From: Escherichia phage vB_EcoM_G2494
DNA: 64,000 nt
Sequence record: MK327935.1
Strand: one strand, 5' to 3'
Program-made: the position numbers and the translations under genes
Shown: in pieces, positions 28,995 to 32,825 of the stretch
How the letters are laid out: each line of letters starts with the position of its first letter
How positions within the stretch are numbered: position 1 is the stretch's first letter
Notes under the pieces: generated by a model
Told to the model about the DNA's origin: nothing
The model's input: only the letters and a program-made list of their open reading frames with translations
Databases searched by the model: none

Positions 28995-29465
28995 TTACAG
29001 TTTGGTCGTCCACTCCAGGTCTAGATCTTCGACATACTCATGAGATCGGACAATCTCTAAATCGAACTCTAGGTTAGTGCCAAATTTACGCGCACCAACA
29101 TCATAAGAAAGCGTGATATGCGGTACATATTCAGGATAATCCCACGTCGCACCTAAAGCAGTGCCGATATCGTGTCTGAATTGCATGTAGTCGCTTTCAA
29201 ATGCCAGCACAAGCGCATTAGTACCGGATTGAGTTTCAAACACTTTCAGATGGCATAGAGAGCCTAAGAACTTCTCCCCTTCTTCTGGGATAAACGGAAC
29301 ATAGACACGAGAATATAAGATAGTGCTATGCAGTTTATCACGAGGAACGGCATTAGGCAGATCGTAGAACTCCTGCAATTTTTCAATGCGGTCTAGTGTA
29401 TCCTCAGTGAATTTAACCGCCGCATATGTACCTTTAACGGATTCTCGAAACGGGGTCATAATCAA
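28995..29465 (-). CDS. 2H-phosphoesterase-fold protein at the T4 57B (Acb1) position
   Basis: 156 aa; two H-x-T/S-x motifs (LHSTIL and PHITLS); located immediately upstream of 57A and gene 1 as T4 57B is. Confidence 0.5.
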   Translation of the reverse strand: MIMTPFRESVKGTYAAVKFTEDTLDRIEKLQEFYDLPNAVPRDKLHSTILYSRVYVPFIPEEGEKFLGSLCHLKVFETQSGTNALVLAFESDYMQFRHDIGTALGATWDYPEYVPHITLSYDVGARKFGTNLEFDLEIVRSHEYVEDLDLEWTTKL

Positions 29466-29728
29466 GCCTCCGTGATCAGTTCTACTTCCTCTTTAGCGTC
29501 TTCCGCTGCTTCGTCTTTAGGGAGAAGTGCTTTCACTTCTTCGACAATAGCATCAAGGGAAACAGTCCCGTTTTCGTCTGGCTGAATACCCAGAATGCGT
29601 ACCAGTTCCATCAATACACGCTCACGATCTTTCAGTTGGCCTTCTAAGAATGCGGCCTTTTCTTGAGTGTCAAACAGACGTACTTTCAGGACATTAATCA
29701 TTTGTTCATGCTGATTGGACATATTCAC
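29462..29728 (-). CDS. 57A: tail-fibre assembly chaperone gp57A-like
   Basis: 88 aa; LKVRLFDTQEKAAFLEGQ resembles the T4 gp57A coiled-coil N-terminus; position next to gene 1. Confidence 0.6.
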   Translation of the reverse strand: MNMSNQHEQMINVLKVRLFDTQEKAAFLEGQLKDRERVLMELVRILGIQPDENGTVSLDAIVEEVKALLPKDEAAEDAKEEVELITEA

Positions 29729-29754: not shown

Positions 29755-30411
29755 TTAAATGTTCGCGAGAATCGCGCTTTCAAATTCTTCTAATGTACCA
29801 TTATTTATGATAATGGTTTCACCGTCAATAGGCAAAATTCCTTTTTCGGTGGAGTGAGTCGATACAATACCAGTATCACGCTGAATATGCAACACCTTAG
29901 CACCCATAGAACGCACGAGAGCAATTTCAATAGGCTGACGCACATCAACCACTACAAAATAACCTTCTTCATTTTTGCGCTTCATAAACTCATTCACGAA
30001 GAGATTACACCAATAAAGCGGATTGATCAAGTTAACCATTATATCAGTACCGAGAGTGGTTAACATGAGACGAATAGACCAGACGTTATTATGTTTTTCG
30101 CCAATCTCATTAACGACCTTGTAAATCTCAGCCAGACGATCACAAGTAAAGGAACTACCGCCATACTTCGAATCTAGCATAAGCAGACACTGAATAAACC
30201 ACTTATGCGCGGTATAGGTATCAATACCTAGATCGGATTCTCTGTCACGCCCTAACCCGTCAAAGTCAAGATAAGTCAGACCTAAGTCTGGTTGACATTC
30301 GCACAATATTTCTTTGATCGGTGCTGCCAGTTGATAACTATGTCCATCAATGATTAACGCGGCAGTGTCTTTTCCTACTCGCTTTTTACCACAAAGTGCA
30401 ATCAATTTCAT
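29755..30411 (-). CDS. 1: deoxynucleoside monophosphate kinase
   Basis: 218 aa; P-loop MKLIALCGKKRVGKDT and overall resemblance to T4 gp1. Confidence 0.85.
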   Translation of the reverse strand: MKLIALCGKKRVGKDTAALIIDGHSYQLAAPIKEILCECQPDLGLTYLDFDGLGRDRESDLGIDTYTAHKWFIQCLLMLDSKYGGSSFTCDRLAEIYKVVNEIGEKHNNVWSIRLMLTTLGTDIMVNLINPLYWCNLFVNEFMKRKNEEGYFVVVDVRQPIEIALVRSMGAKVLHIQRDTGIVSTHSTEKGILPIDGETIIINNGTLEEFESAILANI

Positions 30412-30426
30412 TATATAAGCCTCTTA

Positions 30427-31017
30427 TTACTTTCTAAAAGCAGGGTGCATAGCTTTAATACCTTCCACCCTCTGACGATCCGCCGCCTGAATTGCTGGGC
30501 GAGGAACGATCAGTTGACCATCACGTTCAATGCTCATTGTTTTAAAGGGAAGAATTGCAGTACACACCAGAGATTCATGCATATCATCGGTGTATGTTAA
30601 CTCAAGTTCCCCCAATTGTGAACACCAACAACCATAAAAGTTAAAAGTGCACACAATGTTACGTCGTTCGTTGTCCATCATGTGAACTTGAACGGCTTCC
30701 GGCATTGAATCCTTCCACGCAGTGGAGTTACCGTTATTGTAGTCTACTATAGAAAGCATCCATGTGTAAAGGTTTAGATAACTTTCCAAATGCTCATCGA
30801 CAATAAACCGGACTACCAGCGGGTCAAACTCTACATGACTAGACGGATAATCAGCAACCGCCAAACCATATTGACCAGCAACTTGTTTAGTCGGTGGAAT
30901 GGTTATAGCAGGAAGTGTAACACCTTGAGCATTTAAAGTAAAGCCTTTTGTTAGTTGCCCATCTGGAATATTGATCTGCCAGTTGCTGGGGTTAGCATAG
31001 TTAAAGAGATTAGACAT
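30427..31017 (-). CDS. 3: tail tube terminator / tail completion protein
   Basis: 196 aa; T4 order 1-3-2-4. Confidence 0.65.
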   Translation of the reverse strand: MSNLFNYANPSNWQINIPDGQLTKGFTLNAQGVTLPAITIPPTKQVAGQYGLAVADYPSSHVEFDPLVVRFIVDEHLESYLNLYTWMLSIVDYNNGNSTAWKDSMPEAVQVHMMDNERRNIVCTFNFYGCWCSQLGELELTYTDDMHESLVCTAILPFKTMSIERDGQLIVPRPAIQAADRQRVEGIKAMHPAFRK

Positions 31018-31206
31018 TACTGATTCCTCAAATGAAAATATTTATTAACAATTGTCGCTTTGCGACGTGCCGTAGGCACTGACTACTTTTTAACCTAAAC
31101 AAATTTTTATTATTCTAAAGATCTTTCTTCGTTTTGGTTATGTTTTAACCAATAACTATATTTTTATACAGTAATAAATAAAACGGGTACTATACGAGGA
31201 CTTCTT

Positions 31207-31461
31207 ATGACAGAAGACATTTTGTTAAAACTCTATGATCGTTTGGACAACGAATTGGCAACATTGCGGGGTGAAGTTCTCTATTTGTCTAAATGCAATA
31301 CAGATCTGCTTAAGCAGATTGCAGAAAGGGATGATCAAATAAAATCCCTTTCAGGTGCATTACGTGATCGCGACAAGGCATTAGAGATTTTACAGCGTGT
31401 TACCAATAAGGAAGAATTAAAAGACTTCTTACATGGTTATGCTCATGCTATCGATCTATAA
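31207..31461 (+). CDS. hypothetical coiled-coil protein on opposite strand between genes 3 and 2
   Basis: ORF track 84 aa; GAGGA SD 7 nt upstream of ATG; preceded by a 189-bp intergenic region. Confidence 0.4.
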   Translation: MTEDILLKLYDRLDNELATLRGEVLYLSKCNTDLLKQIAERDDQIKSLSGALRDRDKALEILQRVTNKEELKDFLHGYAHAIDL

Positions 31462-31486
31462 TAAAAAAAGCCCGTCAATGACGGGC
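31462..31486 (-). terminator. rho-independent terminator downstream of gene 2
   Basis: Minus RNA gcccguc-auu-gacgggc followed by UUUUUUUAUU. Confidence 0.55.
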
Positions 31487-31492
31487 TTAATG

Positions 31493-32314
31493 TTATGCAT
31501 CCTTCCAAACTTTCCTTGCGTCGTATTTCTTGCCTTTTGACATAAACTGATATGTCGGCATATAGATAATATTGCTCCAGTCTTTCGGGCTAATCTCAAC
31601 AAGTTTTGTTTTAATGTGTCCCGGTAGATATGCTTTGATCATGTGATCACTTCCACGCATACCTTTTACATCGCTCCATTTGATTTTTAAGCGTGTTTTA
31701 TTGCTCAAGGTAGGAGTAGATGCATATTGCTTTAAAAGTGCTTCCAGAAACTGCTGACGGGCTTTAGGCGTTACATAGTGTAAGTTAAGACCCAGCATTA
31801 CAGTATTACCCGCCTTTGTCTTAGAATCACCCAGACAAATGATCAGCGGGAAAACATCCCAATATGGCAAAGTGTCTTTATACTTCGCATCATACATAAA
31901 GGTATAGATTCGCCCTACTTGCGGTTTTACAATCTGGTGTCCCTTTATTCCCGCTTTTATTGTTTTAGTAAACCACTCCTGTGATTTTTCTTTAGGACGA
32001 CTCTTTGATACAGCACGCATAGACGCACGAAAATCATTAATCATCATCATTGCGCGTTGCTGCTTATTGAGACCCTTTGCGCCTTTCCCTTTTAGTTTTT
32101 CAACTTCTATTGCTGTTTTAATTTCGCTGGCATAACGAGACATACTTTTAGTGAAAGTCGCATAGGCTATTCCCTTAGAATCTGCAAATGCTTTAGCTGT
32201 CATGCCTTTGGCTTTTGCTTTCGCAAATTCTACACCCAATTCGACCCACTGTTTAGACTTTCGTTTTTGGGGAGACGGCTTTTCGTCTTCTGTGATTATT
32301 TCAAATACGCTCAT
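31493..32314 (-). CDS. 2: DNA end protector protein
   Basis: 273 aa (T4 gp2 is 274 aa); synteny. Confidence 0.7.
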   Translation of the reverse strand: MSVFEIITEDEKPSPQKRKSKQWVELGVEFAKAKAKGMTAKAFADSKGIAYATFTKSMSRYASEIKTAIEVEKLKGKGAKGLNKQQRAMMMINDFRASMRAVSKSRPKEKSQEWFTKTIKAGIKGHQIVKPQVGRIYTFMYDAKYKDTLPYWDVFPLIICLGDSKTKAGNTVMLGLNLHYVTPKARQQFLEALLKQYASTPTLSNKTRLKIKWSDVKGMRGSDHMIKAYLPGHIKTKLVEISPKDWSNIIYMPTYQFMSKGKKYDARKVWKDA

Positions 32315-32325
32315 AATATTATCCT

Positions 32326-32802
32326 CTATTTGTTAAGCCCTTTAAAGCCAAACACTTTCTTTAATGCATGTTCGGTGATGATCTTAAACTCCATGTTATG
32401 CTTTTGACATAAATCAACCGCAGCTTTCCACTTTTCCGTGTTTACAGTATATGTGTAACACTCTTGCATATATCTTTGCTTAGTCTTAGTGGTTATTCTT
32501 TTTGGCCTTTCTGGTGGCCTTGTCTCTTTTGCTGGTTTTATTTCCCATAAATGCTCTTTACCATCATCAAACTTAACGTATATATCCATGTAGTAGCGCC
32601 TTTTTTTGTTATCGGCGCTGGACCAGTATGGAATCACTACGGTCTCTGACCCCCATTTAGCGACTCTAGGGTTACGGTCTAGCCACTTAAAAATGTGCAA
32701 CTCCCAGCTTGACCTATACGTTATTTTATGCAAGTTATTCCCTTTGTACTTCTCAGGATTTTCCGGTCTATACTTGCCCTTATAAGTGTTAGATCCTCCC
32801 AT
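32326..32802 (-). CDS. 4: head completion protein (nuclease-like fold)
   Basis: 158 aa; synteny; YRSSWELHIFKW...YYMDIYV...HLWEIKP motif block. Confidence 0.7.
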   Translation of the reverse strand: MGGSNTYKGKYRPENPEKYKGNNLHKITYRSSWELHIFKWLDRNPRVAKWGSETVVIPYWSSADNKKRRYYMDIYVKFDDGKEHLWEIKPAKETRPPERPKRITTKTKQRYMQECYTYTVNTEKWKAAVDLCQKHNMEFKIITEHALKKVFGFKGLNK

Positions 32803-32817
32803 TTTAGCACCCTTTAT

Positions 32818-32825
32818 TATAAATA
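32818..32825 (+). promoter_or_regulatory. T4 late promoter box TATAAATA (gene 53)
   Basis: TATAAATA about 32 nt upstream of gp53 ATG. Confidence 0.55.

What the first reader, a model, noticed from the sequence alone, without database searches (positions are those of the whole stretch)
31207..31461. Opposite-strand coiled-coil ORF between genes 3 and 2
An 84-aa plus-strand ORF with a GAGGA Shine-Dalgarno lies between two minus-strand late genes that are adjacent in T4, preceded by a 189-bp intergenic region with two short palindromes (gtcgc...gcgac, gtgcc...ggcac). It is heptad-like and Leu/Glu/Lys-rich. This may be a lineage-specific insertion, a regulator, or a non-coding region that happens to be open.
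Basis: seen in the sequence. Interest (0 to 1): 0.4.

Follow-up and report, generated by a model that had tools for sequence, protein, structure and literature searches.

The report
Conserved small leucine-zipper phage gene
The open reading frame is a real protein-coding gene, already annotated as hypothetical RB49ORF130w, that RB49-like T4-type phages carry as a self-contained and probably late-expressed unit inserted backwards between tail gene 3 and head gene 2; it encodes a small leucine-zipper protein of unknown function, so the finding is correct but fairly ordinary.

Summary
An 84-codon plus-strand ORF (31207-31461) with a GAGGA ribosome site lies in the gap between minus-strand genes 3 and 2. 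A 189-bp spacer with two adjacent 5-bp hairpins precedes it.

The window is a Krischvirus (RB49-like coliphage). The ORF is 100% identical to RB49ORF130w, annotated "hypothetical protein" since 2003 (phrog_17832, unknown function). All 58 matching phage genomes carry it.

It is a real gene. Uncultured relatives at 94%, 73%, 67% and 44% identity keep it next to gene 2, between genes 3 and 2 wherever the contig is long enough to show both. dN/dS is about 0.09-0.11, the same as for genes 3 and 2.

It looks like an autonomous unit:
- a T4-type late-promoter motif ((A/T)ATAAATA) sits 27 nt before the ATG and is the longest invariant run in a spacer that is otherwise about 70% identical;
- a strong hairpin terminator is shared with gene 2.

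The product is a 9.7-kDa acidic protein. It has one uninterrupted leucine zipper of about 8.5 heptads and a short C-terminal helix with an invariant FLxGYAH motif.

No informative homologue or fold match exists. Profile similarity to the tail-fibre chaperone gp57A is weak and inconclusive.

My best guess (about 35%) is a late, lineage-specific assembly accessory factor. Function remains untested.

The parts
31207..31461 (+). ORF130w coding sequence: 84 codons plus stop, giving a 9.7-kDa acidic leucine-zipper protein.
   Evidence: ORF list. It is 100% identical to RB49ORF130w and matches phrog_17832 at E = 2e-57. dN/dS is 0.09-0.11. AlphaFold2 gives pLDDT 90.5 with helices 2-64 and 68-83.
31196..31200 (+). 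Shine-Dalgarno sequence GAGGA, 6 nt upstream of the ATG.
   Evidence: Read from the sequence. Equivalent AGAGGA, AAGGAG and GGAGG sites sit before the homologues in L003, L006 and L010.
31173..31180 (+). T4-type late-promoter-like motif AATAAATA. The inferred transcription start is near 31186, giving a leader of about 21 nt.
   Evidence: Motif search. The core ATAAATA is the longest invariant run in the spacer alignment, and the motif is exact TATAAATA in L009/L021, L003 and L006. A or T at -13 is normal for RB49 late promoters (PMC1524935). The function is inferred, not shown.
31468..31488 (.). Hairpin terminator with a 9-10-bp G+C-rich stem, shared by the convergent ORF130w and gene 2. The T-run lies on the minus strand and an A-run plus a weak T-rich tail on the plus strand.
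   Evidence: Terminator scan. Folding gives -16.9 and -14.6 kcal/mol with z = -5.2 and -4.7. The stem is invariant in the relatives. TransTerm predicted it in RB49 as 'RB49ORF130w-><-2' (PMC1524935 supplement).
31054..31066 (.). Hairpin 1: GTCGC-TTT-GCGAC.
   Evidence: It is 100% paired in 4 lineages, and 3 of its 5 pairs show compensatory changes. It is unique in the window.
31067..31079 (.). Hairpin 2: GTGCC-GTA-GGCAC, directly abutting hairpin 1. A T-rich tract follows on the plus strand in all lineages.
   Evidence: The outer pair changes from G-C to A-T as a compensatory change.
31039..31046 (-). Late-promoter-like AATAAATA, 22 nt upstream of the gene 3 ATG and divergent from the ORF130w promoter.
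   Evidence: It is conserved in L003, L009 and L021.
31134..31152 (.). A 7-bp A+T-rich inverted repeat, TTGGTTA-N5-TAACCAA, 21 nt upstream of the late-promoter motif. Its role is unknown.
   Evidence: The arms are kept with a different loop in L006, but not in L003 or L009.
30427..31017 (-). Gene 3 (tail completion / tube terminator). This is the left flank, given for context.
31493..32314 (-). Gene 2 (DNA end protector). This is the right flank, convergent with ORF130w.

Best explanation
ORF 31207-31461 is a genuine protein-coding gene, identical to RB49ORF130w. It forms a self-contained, 'moron-like' transcription unit set backwards into the head/tail-completion gene cluster.

Proposed chain of events:
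1. A T4-type late promoter (AATAAATA, 31173-31180) is read by the phage gp55-RNA polymerase.
2. Transcription starts near 31186 and gives a leader of about 21 nt carrying a GAGGA ribosome site.
3. The 84 codons are translated.
4. Transcription ends at the hairpin shared with convergent gene 2.

The product is a 9.7-kDa acidic protein with two parts:
- one uninterrupted leucine zipper of about 8.5 heptads (residues 3-62), with Leu at 7 of 9 d positions and Val/Ile/Leu/Asn at a positions;
- a short amphipathic C-terminal helix.

I infer that it forms a parallel homodimer. The most conserved surfaces (LRDR[DE]KA[LV]E[IV]L and FLxGYAH) would bind a partner protein.

It appears to be made together with the virion proteins, sits among morphogenesis genes, and evolves as slowly as its structural neighbours. 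Its most likely role is therefore a lineage-specific accessory factor in virion assembly: a chaperone or adaptor for head/tail completion or fibre proteins.

What is shown: the gene is real, conserved, syntenic and under selection, and its product is helical with a heptad pattern.
What is inferred from motifs: late timing and termination.
What is inferred from residue rules: the dimeric state.
What is inferred only from context: the assembly role (about 35% likely).
For: Identity and distribution:
- The region is 98-99% identical to RB49-like genomes.
- The ORF is annotated RB49ORF130w and is present in 58 of 58 matching records, 52 of them at 100% amino-acid identity.

Coding:
- Homologues at 94, 73, 67 and 44% identity lie next to gene 2, between genes 3 and 2 in the three contigs long enough to show it.
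- dN/dS is 0.093 and 0.108, against 0.091 for gp3 and 0.084 for gp2.
- Within the genus, all 2-3 differences are synonymous. The 94-95% lineage shows 17-19 synonymous against 4-5 non-synonymous codon changes, while the upstream spacer is only 70% identical.

Late unit:
- Of the 11 WATAAATA motifs in the window, 8 lie between called ORFs, 22-56 nt upstream of an ATG. This one sits at 27 nt, close to the 33 nt for gene 53.
- ATAAATA is the longest invariant run in the spacer, and the motif is exact TATAAATA in three other lineages.
- A or T at -13 is documented for RB49 late promoters (PMC1524935).
- The gene faces the same way as late genes 53 and 5.
- No sigma-70 promoter lies at a suitable position.
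- The terminator is supported.

Protein:
- AlphaFold2 gives pLDDT 90.5 with helices 2-64 and 68-83.
- The heptad register is matched by 0 of 5000 shuffles, in all four lineages tested.
- The invariant motifs are listed.

Context:
- The gene is embedded in the 57A-1-3-2-4-53-5 cluster.
- Its G+C content (0.377) is like that of the genome (0.402), so it is not a recent foreign import.
Against: - There are no expression or proteome data. No paper in the held library mentions the gene.
- The published RB49 promoter survey (17 late sites) did not call a late promoter here. It states that late promoters were found only before T4 orthologues.
- In the most distant homologue (L010) the motif is only GCTAAATA, although that phage uses canonical TATAAATA before gene 53.
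- Tevenvirinae build very similar virions without this gene.
- One viable isolate (FL20) has a frameshift at codon 42, and truncated metagenomic variants exist. If these are not sequencing errors, the gene is dispensable.
- No homology or fold match links it to any assembly protein.
- Arg occupies two core d positions (R41, R55), which is unusual for a simple homodimeric zipper.
Confidence: 0.35

Rival explanations
1. The protein is a late accessory factor that acts on the host or on the infection process rather than on the virion. Examples would be a modulator of lysis timing or superinfection, an anti-defence protein, or a coiled-coil decoy that pairs with a host coiled-coil protein. The zipper would dimerise with or sequester a target, and the gene would be dispensable in permissive laboratory hosts.
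For: - The gene is restricted to one clade and absent from Tevenvirinae, which build similar virions.
- It may be dispensable, given the FL20 frameshift and the truncated variants.
- The 2/3 junction is a hot spot that holds unrelated accessory genes in other genera.
- The most conserved segment has polar Arg/Asp in the zipper core, which suggests hetero-association.
Against: - There is no match to any anti-defence or defence family (PADLOC) or to any lysis family.
- According to PMC1524935, most host-directed accessory ORFs of T4-like phages are early and transcribed leftward. This gene has a late-type motif and late orientation.
- Its conservation is as strict as that of structural genes.
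Confidence: 0.3
2. The gene regulates phage gene expression. Either the protein binds the transcription or translation machinery, or the act of convergent late transcription into the shared terminator tunes expression of gene 2 (and, through the divergent promoters, gene 3).
For: - The unit is convergent with gene 2 at a single shared hairpin and divergent from the gene 3 promoter 126 bp away.
- Conserved hairpins and an inverted repeat lie in the spacer.
- Small coiled-coil proteins often act as adaptors.
Against: - Strong purifying selection on the amino-acid sequence shows that the protein matters, not just transcription.
- The protein is acidic and has no basic region or DNA/RNA-binding domain.
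- The transcript does not overlap the coding sequence of gene 2 or gene 3.
Confidence: 0.12
3. The protein is a diverged paralogue of gp57A, the small coiled-coil chaperone for trimeric tail-fibre proteins. It would act as a second fibre-folding chaperone.
For: - Size, acidity and layout are similar: an N-terminal coiled coil followed by a short C-terminal helix.
- Both genes lie in the same cluster.
- hhalign against an 11-sequence gp57A alignment scores 27.6 (P = 1.2e-4, probability 55%). Controls score lower: reversed 13.5-15.5, and heptad-block-shuffled mean 13.6, sd 3.0, max 22.
- The signal persists without the Krischvirus gp57A sequences (26.1).
Against: - With a larger 29-sequence gp57A alignment the score falls to 23.9 (probability 28%), while the best shuffle reaches 23.4.
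- The aligned register shifts by a heptad between runs.
- BLASTP finds nothing.
- There is no hit to Pfam GP57 or phrog_1002 even at E <= 10.
- ORF130w has aromatic residues and no acidic tail. In the gp57A alignment aromatic residues are rare outside a conserved Phe/Leu column, and most members end in an acidic tail.
Confidence: 0.08
4. The ORF is a chance open frame in a non-coding spacer.
For: It is short, has no known domain, and was never studied.
Against: - The frame, length and position are conserved down to 44% identity.
- dN/dS is about 0.1.
- Differences by codon position are 21/10/43.
- A ribosome site is present in every lineage.
- No other frame is open in the relatives.
Confidence: 0.02

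Closest known systems
RB49ORF130w (AAQ15383.1 / RB49p130), PHROG family phrog_17832
   Same: The protein sequence is identical, with the same position and orientation between genes 3 and 2. The full-length match to the 84-position profile has E = 2e-57.
   Different: Nothing differs; this is the same gene. The family has no assigned function and no literature.
T4 gp57A tail-fibre assembly chaperone (Pfam PF17594, phrog_1002)
   Same: Both are acidic helical proteins of about 80 residues, with an N-terminal coiled coil and a short C-terminal helix, encoded in the same morphogenesis cluster. A weak profile-profile signal exists.
   Different: ORF130w does not match the family models. The profile signal is not robust. 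ORF130w has a longer zipper, aromatic residues and no acidic tail. The true gp57A is present separately at 29462-29728.
'Morons' of lambdoid phages (autonomous promoter-gene-terminator units inserted between conserved late genes; from my own knowledge of the literature)
   Same: A single extra gene with its own promoter-like motif and terminator lies between two genes that are adjacent in relatives.
   Different: The host phage is strictly lytic. The promoter motif is of the phage late type rather than a host promoter active in a lysogen. The unit is fixed across a genus rather than sporadic.
PeSL (promoter-early stem-loop) cassettes of RB49/phi1 (PMC4122927)
   Same: This is an accessory ORF in an RB49-type genome bordered by G+C-rich stem-loops.
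   Different: PeSLs carry near-perfect sigma-70 promoters (TTGACA-N17-TATAAT) and mark genes that differ between RB49 and phi1. Here no such promoter is found, and the gene is identical in RB49 and Phi1.
phrog_7322 gene at the 2/3 junction of Pseudotevenvirus and Slopekvirus (IME-CF2 gp013, KP27_206)
   Same: It is an opposite-strand accessory gene in the same gap. In KP27 it is convergent on gene 2 with an annotated bidirectional terminator.
   Different: It is an unrelated protein of about 262 aa. In KP27 it is annotated with sigma-70 and 'middle' promoters rather than a late one. Its function is unknown.
GCN4/bZIP-type leucine zippers (from my own knowledge)
   Same: Leu recurs every seventh residue at d (L6, L13, L20, L27, L34, L48, L62). 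The a positions are beta-branched or Leu, with a single Asn (N31), which is the classical signature of a parallel dimer.
   Different: There is no basic DNA-binding region and the protein is acidic overall (pI 5.1). Two d positions are Arg. No significant bZIP family match is found.

Membership tests
RB49ORF130w / phrog_17832 | Full-length sequence match to the family profile. | tested here: met
   E = 2.1e-57 over residues 1-84 of an 84-position profile. The protein is 100% identical to the RB49 protein.
RB49ORF130w / phrog_17832 | Position between genes 3 and 2, on the opposite strand. | tested here: met
   The arrangement is the same in RB49, TB34, L003-L005, L010, L011 and L021-L023.
Protein-coding gene (as opposed to a chance ORF) | Purifying selection and frame conservation across diverged relatives. 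| tested here: met
   dN/dS is 0.093 and 0.108. Codon-position differences are 21/10/43. No other frame is open in the relatives. One lineage shows 17-19 synonymous against 4-5 non-synonymous codon changes.
T4-type late gene | A TATAAATA-class motif at the right distance upstream of the start codon. | tested here: met
   AATAAATA lies 27 nt before the ATG. The motif is exact TATAAATA in three lineages, and the core is invariant in a spacer about 70% identical. A or T at -13 is accepted for RB49 (PMC1524935). In L010 the motif is only GCTAAATA.
T4-type late gene | Transcription late in infection that depends on gp55/gp33/gp45. | not testable with these tools
   No transcript data were found. 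The site is not among the 17 late promoters predicted for RB49.
gp57A chaperone family (PF17594 / phrog_1002) | Match to the family models. | tested here: not met
   None of the 5 family members hits PF17594 or phrog_1002, even at E <= 10. BLASTP finds nothing.
gp57A chaperone family (PF17594 / phrog_1002) | Profile-profile homology. | tested here: inconclusive
   hhalign gives probability 55% and score 27.6, above all controls. With a larger alignment this falls to probability 28% and score 23.9, against a best shuffle of 23.4.
gp57A chaperone family (PF17594 / phrog_1002) | Sequence character: few aromatic residues and an acidic C-terminal tail. | tested here: not met
   ORF130w has Y10, Y26, F74 and Y78 and ends in ...GYAHAIDL. 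In the gp57A alignment aromatic residues are rare apart from a conserved Phe/Leu column, and most members end in Asp/Glu-rich tails.
Parallel dimeric leucine zipper | An uninterrupted heptad repeat with Leu at d and beta-branched residues or Asn at a. | tested here: met
   14 of 18 a/d positions are hydrophobic, reached by 0 of 5000 shuffles. Leu occupies 7 of 9 d positions and N31 lies at a. AlphaFold2 predicts a single helix over residues 2-64.
Parallel dimeric leucine zipper | The actual oligomeric state and strand orientation. | not testable with these tools
   Only single-chain prediction is available. Arg at d41 and d55 leaves hetero-association or another state possible.
bZIP transcription factor | A basic DNA-binding region N-terminal to the zipper. 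| tested here: not met
   The zipper begins at residue 3. The protein has pI 5.1 and net charge -4. bZIP_1 is hit by only 1 of 5 members, at E = 0.01.
PeSL cassette | A near-consensus sigma-70 promoter joined to a stem-loop. | tested here: not met
   No sigma-70-like site lies upstream of the ORF. The best by-eye candidate is TTGGTT-17-TATATT (8 of 12) and it is not conserved. The PeSL definition is taken from PMC4122927.
Known RNA family (for the hairpins or the terminator) | An Rfam match at the gathering score. | tested here: not met
   Only sub-threshold chance hits appear (E 0.1-0.9, bit scores far below gathering).

The most novel reading that the evidence does not exclude
ORF130w would be a previously unrecognised class of late-expressed leucine-zipper morphogenetic factor. 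It might be a very diverged second gp57A-type chaperone that Krischvirus and its sister lineages need for folding or joining a lineage-specific virion component. It would also be the first 'novel ORF' of an RB49-type phage shown to be driven by a late promoter, contrary to the published generalisation that late promoters precede only T4 orthologues.
Probability: 0.1. Interest if true: 0.5.

Novelty: already known. Interest (0 to 1): 0.22.

Why it matters
The practical value is modest. The work turns a 20-year-old 'hypothetical protein' into a testable object. It is now a bona fide, strongly constrained, probably late-expressed 9.7-kDa leucine-zipper protein with two defined conserved surfaces, and it is fixed in every RB49-like phage. 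Several of those phages are candidates for phage therapy.

If the late promoter is real, it is an exception to the published statement that novel ORFs of T4-like phages are early and that late promoters precede only T4 orthologues (PMC1524935).

The survey also shows that the gene 2/gene 3 junction is a recurrent insertion site for opposite-strand accessory genes in Straboviridae outside the Tevenvirinae.

None of this overturns current understanding.

Tried and rejected
Searches that gave nothing useful:
- Fold searches of the AlphaFold2 model found only itself in BFVD and nothing at E <= 0.001 in the PDB. A single long helix is uninformative.
- A profile search of PDB sequences, NCBIfam, PADLOC and Pfam returned only generic coiled-coil noise: dynein, SIR4, NEMO, Fez1, Phage_scaffold at E = 0.02, and LmuB.
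- An exhaustive HMMER search of 1.84 billion representative proteins found only three true clusters (P0001, P0007, P0008). The other hits are long coiled-coil proteins with multiple matched stretches.
- Scans of IMG/VR and JGI metagenomes gave only near-identical copies.
- Four literature searches found no mention of the gene, no Krischvirus virion proteome and no transcriptome.
- No paralogue exists in the window. Rfam has no match.
- The neighbouring genes in L010 and the positional analogue phrog_7322 give no functional hint.

Ideas considered and dropped:
- gp57A paralogy. BLASTP was negative. hhalign was initially suggestive but weakened with a larger alignment. I keep it only as a low-probability rival.
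- PeSL cassette. Rejected because there is no near-consensus sigma-70 promoter.
- An internal-protein-like capsid-targeting or protease-site motif (I/L-x-E). It is not conserved in P0004 and is expected by chance in Leu/Glu-rich sequence.
- T4 rIII-like lysis-inhibition factor. It has a similar size, but no annotated PHROG family matched.
- The internal palindromes of the ORF (31304-31319 and 31324-31352). They are not conserved in relatives, so I treat them as incidental.
Full report
**1. What is there**

The window region 30400-32400 is 98-99% identical to 53 full-length RB49-like coliphage genomes of the genus Krischvirus.

The ORF runs from the ATG at 31207 to the stop ending at 31461 and encodes 84 aa. 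GAGGA at 31196-31200 lies 6 nt before the ATG.

The left neighbour, 30427-31017(-), is gene 3 (tail completion; phrog_45, Pfam Phage_T4_gp19). The right neighbour, 31493-32314(-), is gene 2 (DNA end protector; phrog_429). Beyond these lie gene 4, gene 1, 57A and 57B.

The spacer 31018-31206 is 189 bp. It contains two abutting hairpins, GTCGC-TTT-GCGAC (31054-31066) and GTGCC-GTA-GGCAC (31067-31079).

**2. It is already annotated**

In the RB49 record the same ORF is RB49ORF130w, 'hypothetical protein' AAQ15383.1. In TB34 it is labelled by BLAST to RB49p130.

It matches the 84-position profile of phrog_17832 (unknown function) end to end at E = 2e-57. No Pfam family reaches threshold.

tblastn finds it in 58 phage records, all Krischvirus. 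Of these, 52 are 100% identical at the protein level. No paper in the held library mentions it.

**3. It is a real gene**

The large protein collections add only a few relatives:
- P0002 and P0003 at 94% and 93% identity;
- P0004 at 73%;
- P0005 at 67%;
- P0008 at 44%, found by the exhaustive profile search.

Every one lies convergent on gene 2. Four of the five contig sets examined also show gene 3 on the other side:
- L003-L005 for P0005;
- L021-L023 for P0002;
- L010 and L011 for P0008, with two extra plus-strand genes upstream.

The P0004 contig (L006) is too short to show the left neighbour.

Against L003 and L006 the ORF has dN/dS 0.093 and 0.108. That is indistinguishable from gp3 (0.091) and gp2 (0.084), and tighter than gp1 (0.165). 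Differences by codon position are 21/10/43, and no other frame stays open in the relatives. Synonymous sites are near saturation, so the ratios are approximate.

Within the genus, the 2-3 differences from RB49-type genomes are all synonymous. The 94-95% lineage shows 17-19 synonymous against 4-5 non-synonymous codon changes, while the upstream spacer is only 70% identical.

G+C content (0.377, GC3 0.333) is typical of the genome (0.402). The 'non-coding but open' reading is refuted.

**4. Anatomy of the unit**

*(a) Promoter.* The motif WATAAATA occurs 11 times in the window, no more than chance (13.7 expected). However, 8 of the 11 lie between called ORFs, 22-56 nt upstream of an ATG:
- 31173-31180(+), 27 nt before ORF130w;
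- 31039-31046(-), 22 nt before gene 3;
- 32818-32825(+), 33 nt before gene 53.

In the alignment of five lineages, ATAAATA is the longest invariant run in the spacer. The motif is exact TATAAATA in L009/L021, L003 and L006.

Nolan et al. place TATAAATA at -13 to -6 and state that T at -13 is replaced by A in many RB49 late promoters (PMC1524935). That puts the start near 31186.

Their conservative list of 17 RB49 late promoters does not include this site or gene 3's. They did predict the terminator 'RB49ORF130w-><-2', and no early promoter falls in the interval I checked.

No sigma-70-type site lies before the ORF. In L010 the equivalent motif is only GCTAAATA, although that phage uses canonical TATAAATA before gene 53. 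Late expression is thus a well-supported inference, not a demonstration.

*(b) Terminator.* AAGCCCGTC-ATT-GACGGGCTT (31468-31488) folds at -14.6 to -16.9 kcal/mol, with z = -4.7 to -5.2. It has the T-run on the gene 2 strand and an A-run plus a weaker T-rich tail on the ORF strand. Its stem is invariant in the relatives.

*(c) Hairpins.* Across four distinct lineages all 39 pair cells are standard pairs, and 4 of 10 pairs show compensatory double changes. Slid controls give 20-46% pairing. With only four sequences this is supportive rather than conclusive.

The hairpins are unique in the window and match no Rfam family. They lie outside both inferred late transcripts, between the two divergent late-promoter motifs. 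A T-rich tract follows them on the plus strand in every lineage.

In L006 they keep their position relative to the ORF although the sequence to their left is different. I read them as an insulator or terminator belonging to the ORF130w module. They may be a remnant of a longer plus-strand cassette like the one in L010. This is speculative.

**5. The protein**

AlphaFold2 with the six-sequence alignment gives pLDDT 90.5. It predicts one helix over residues 2-64 and a second over 68-83.

The heptad register is continuous:
- d positions: L6, L13, L20, L27, L34, R41, L48, R55, L62;
- a positions: Y10, L17, V24, N31, I38, I45, L52, L59.

14 of 18 core positions are hydrophobic, reached by 0 of 5000 shuffles. 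The result is the same in three other lineages.

The protein is acidic (pI 5.1) and weighs 9.7 kDa. It has no basic region, signal peptide or membrane segment.

Residues invariant down to 44% identity cluster in three places: LY..[LMI][DE]NEL..L[RK]G, LRDR[DE]KA[LV]E[IV]L.R and FL.GYAH.

Leu at d with a single Asn at a is the classical signature of a parallel dimer (my own knowledge). The two conserved Arg at d suggest that the C-terminal third may engage something other than itself.

**6. Search for relatives and function**

Nothing informative came from fold searches, PDB sequences, NCBIfam, PADLOC, or Pfam and PHROG scans at E <= 10.

The only lead was gp57A, the small coiled-coil fibre chaperone encoded 1.5 kb away.
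- BLASTP is negative.
- hhalign against an 11-sequence gp57A alignment gives score 27.6 (P = 1.2e-4, probability 55%). This exceeds the reversed controls (13.5-15.5), the column-shuffled controls (max 16) and the heptad-block-shuffled controls (mean 13.6, sd 3.0, max 22; 0 of 60 reach it).
- The signal persists without the Krischvirus gp57A sequences.
- With a 29-sequence non-redundant gp57A alignment the score falls to 23.9 (probability 28%), against a best shuffle of 23.4. The aligned register also changes.

I call this inconclusive. ORF130w resembles gp57A in size and layout but fails the family's sequence tests.

**7. Comparative context of the junction**

Genes 2 and 3 abut, with gaps of 82-107 nt, in Karamvirus, Gelderlandvirus and Tequatrovirus.

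Other genera differ:
- Pseudotevenvirus IME-CF2 and Slopekvirus KP27 carry an unrelated opposite-strand gene of about 262 aa (phrog_7322). In KP27 it has an annotated bidirectional terminator shared with gene 2.
- 44RR has a 112-bp repeat there.
- Lazarusvirus has an empty 229-nt gap.
- Aeh1 is rearranged.

The junction is therefore a recurrent insertion point outside the Tevenvirinae, and ORF130w is the occupant in the Krischvirus clade.

Nolan et al. note that novel ORFs almost invariably share the direction of flanking genes, and that late promoters were found only before T4 orthologues. ORF130w is an exception to the first statement and probably to the second.

**8. Mechanism**

My estimates for each step:
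- real gene, about 0.97;
- autonomous late unit, about 0.7;
- dimeric zipper, about 0.6;
- assembly accessory role, about 0.35.

The main rival is a late host- or infection-directed accessory protein (about 0.3). The clade restriction favours it, as does the possible dispensability. One viable isolate, FL20, has a net -1 frameshift at codon 42, and truncated variants P0006 and P0007 occur in assemblies. Both may be sequencing errors.

A regulatory role (about 0.12) and specific gp57A paralogy (about 0.08) remain possible. A chance ORF is excluded.

**9. Verdict**

It is an already-annotated ORFan family of unknown function. Nothing found here is surprising for a T4-like genome. Interest is low to moderate.

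Noticed in passing
window 28995-29465 (-): The gene 57B homologue matches Pfam Acb1 (anti-CBASS phosphodiesterase) at E = 1.2e-51. The window therefore carries a recognisable anti-defence gene 1.5 kb from the finding.
   Followed up: partly
window 31054-31079: The tandem 5-bp hairpins are kept with compensatory changes in four lineages. In L006 they stay with the ORF130w module although the sequence to their left differs. They lie between the divergent late-promoter motifs of gene 3 and ORF130w, outside both inferred transcripts, and their role is unknown.
   Followed up: partly
window 31134-31152: A 7-bp inverted repeat, TTGGTTA-N5-TAACCAA, lies 21 nt upstream of the late-promoter motif. The arms are conserved with a different loop in L006 but not in L003 or L009. 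It could be a protein-binding site or chance.
   Followed up: no
L024 (Escherichia phage FL20, PP400781.1) 401-660; proteins P0006, P0007: FL20 has AT->G (net -1) at codon 42 of ORF130w, which truncates it to a 44-aa annotated CDS. Two metagenomic variants are frameshifted after ...DQIK. These are either sequencing errors or evidence that the gene is dispensable.
   Followed up: partly
L010 3862-3935 (also the first 25 nt of L006): About 3.4 copies of a 22-nt unit, TAGCGATTACACAGCGATTCAC (iteron-like), lie in the enlarged gene 3-ORF spacer of the distant relative. Similar AGCGAT words occur at the left end of L006.
   Followed up: no
L010 4072-4941: The distant relative carries two additional plus-strand genes (64 aa and 204 aa, no family match) upstream of the ORF130w homologue. 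A terminator hairpin separates them from it. This suggests the module was once, or can be, a multi-gene cassette.
   Followed up: partly
L014 1120-1911 (IME-CF2), L016 1028-1816 (KP27), L017 2061-2172 (44RR): The gene 2/gene 3 junction is a recurrent insertion site. Pseudotevenvirus and Slopekvirus carry an unrelated opposite-strand gene of about 262 aa (phrog_7322). 44RR has a 112-bp intergenic repeat that occurs 6 times in its genome.
   Followed up: partly
L006 185-463: The called start of P0004 (92 aa) lies 3 nt after the TATAAATA motif. The ATG at 212, with AAGGAG upstream, would give an 83-aa protein that fits the family, so the database start is probably wrong.
   Followed up: partly
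window 32326-32802 (-) and 31493-32314 (-): gp4 (head completion) matches the TnsA-like endonuclease N-terminal domain (PF08722, E = 1.9e-20). The first 75 residues of gp2 match a separate PHROG annotated 'HTH DNA binding protein' (phrog_32288), which suggests a two-module gp2.
   Followed up: no
window 31304-31319 and 31324-31352: Inside the ORF there is a perfect 16-bp palindrome (ATCTGCTTAAGCAGAT) and a 9-bp inverted repeat with an 11-nt loop. Neither is conserved in L003 or L006, so they are probably incidental.
   Followed up: partly
L002 (phage TB34) 3526-3901: In the TB34 record gene 4 is annotated as two short CDSs (165 and 135 nt) instead of one of about 477 nt. This suggests frameshifts or assembly errors in that record.
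   Followed up: no
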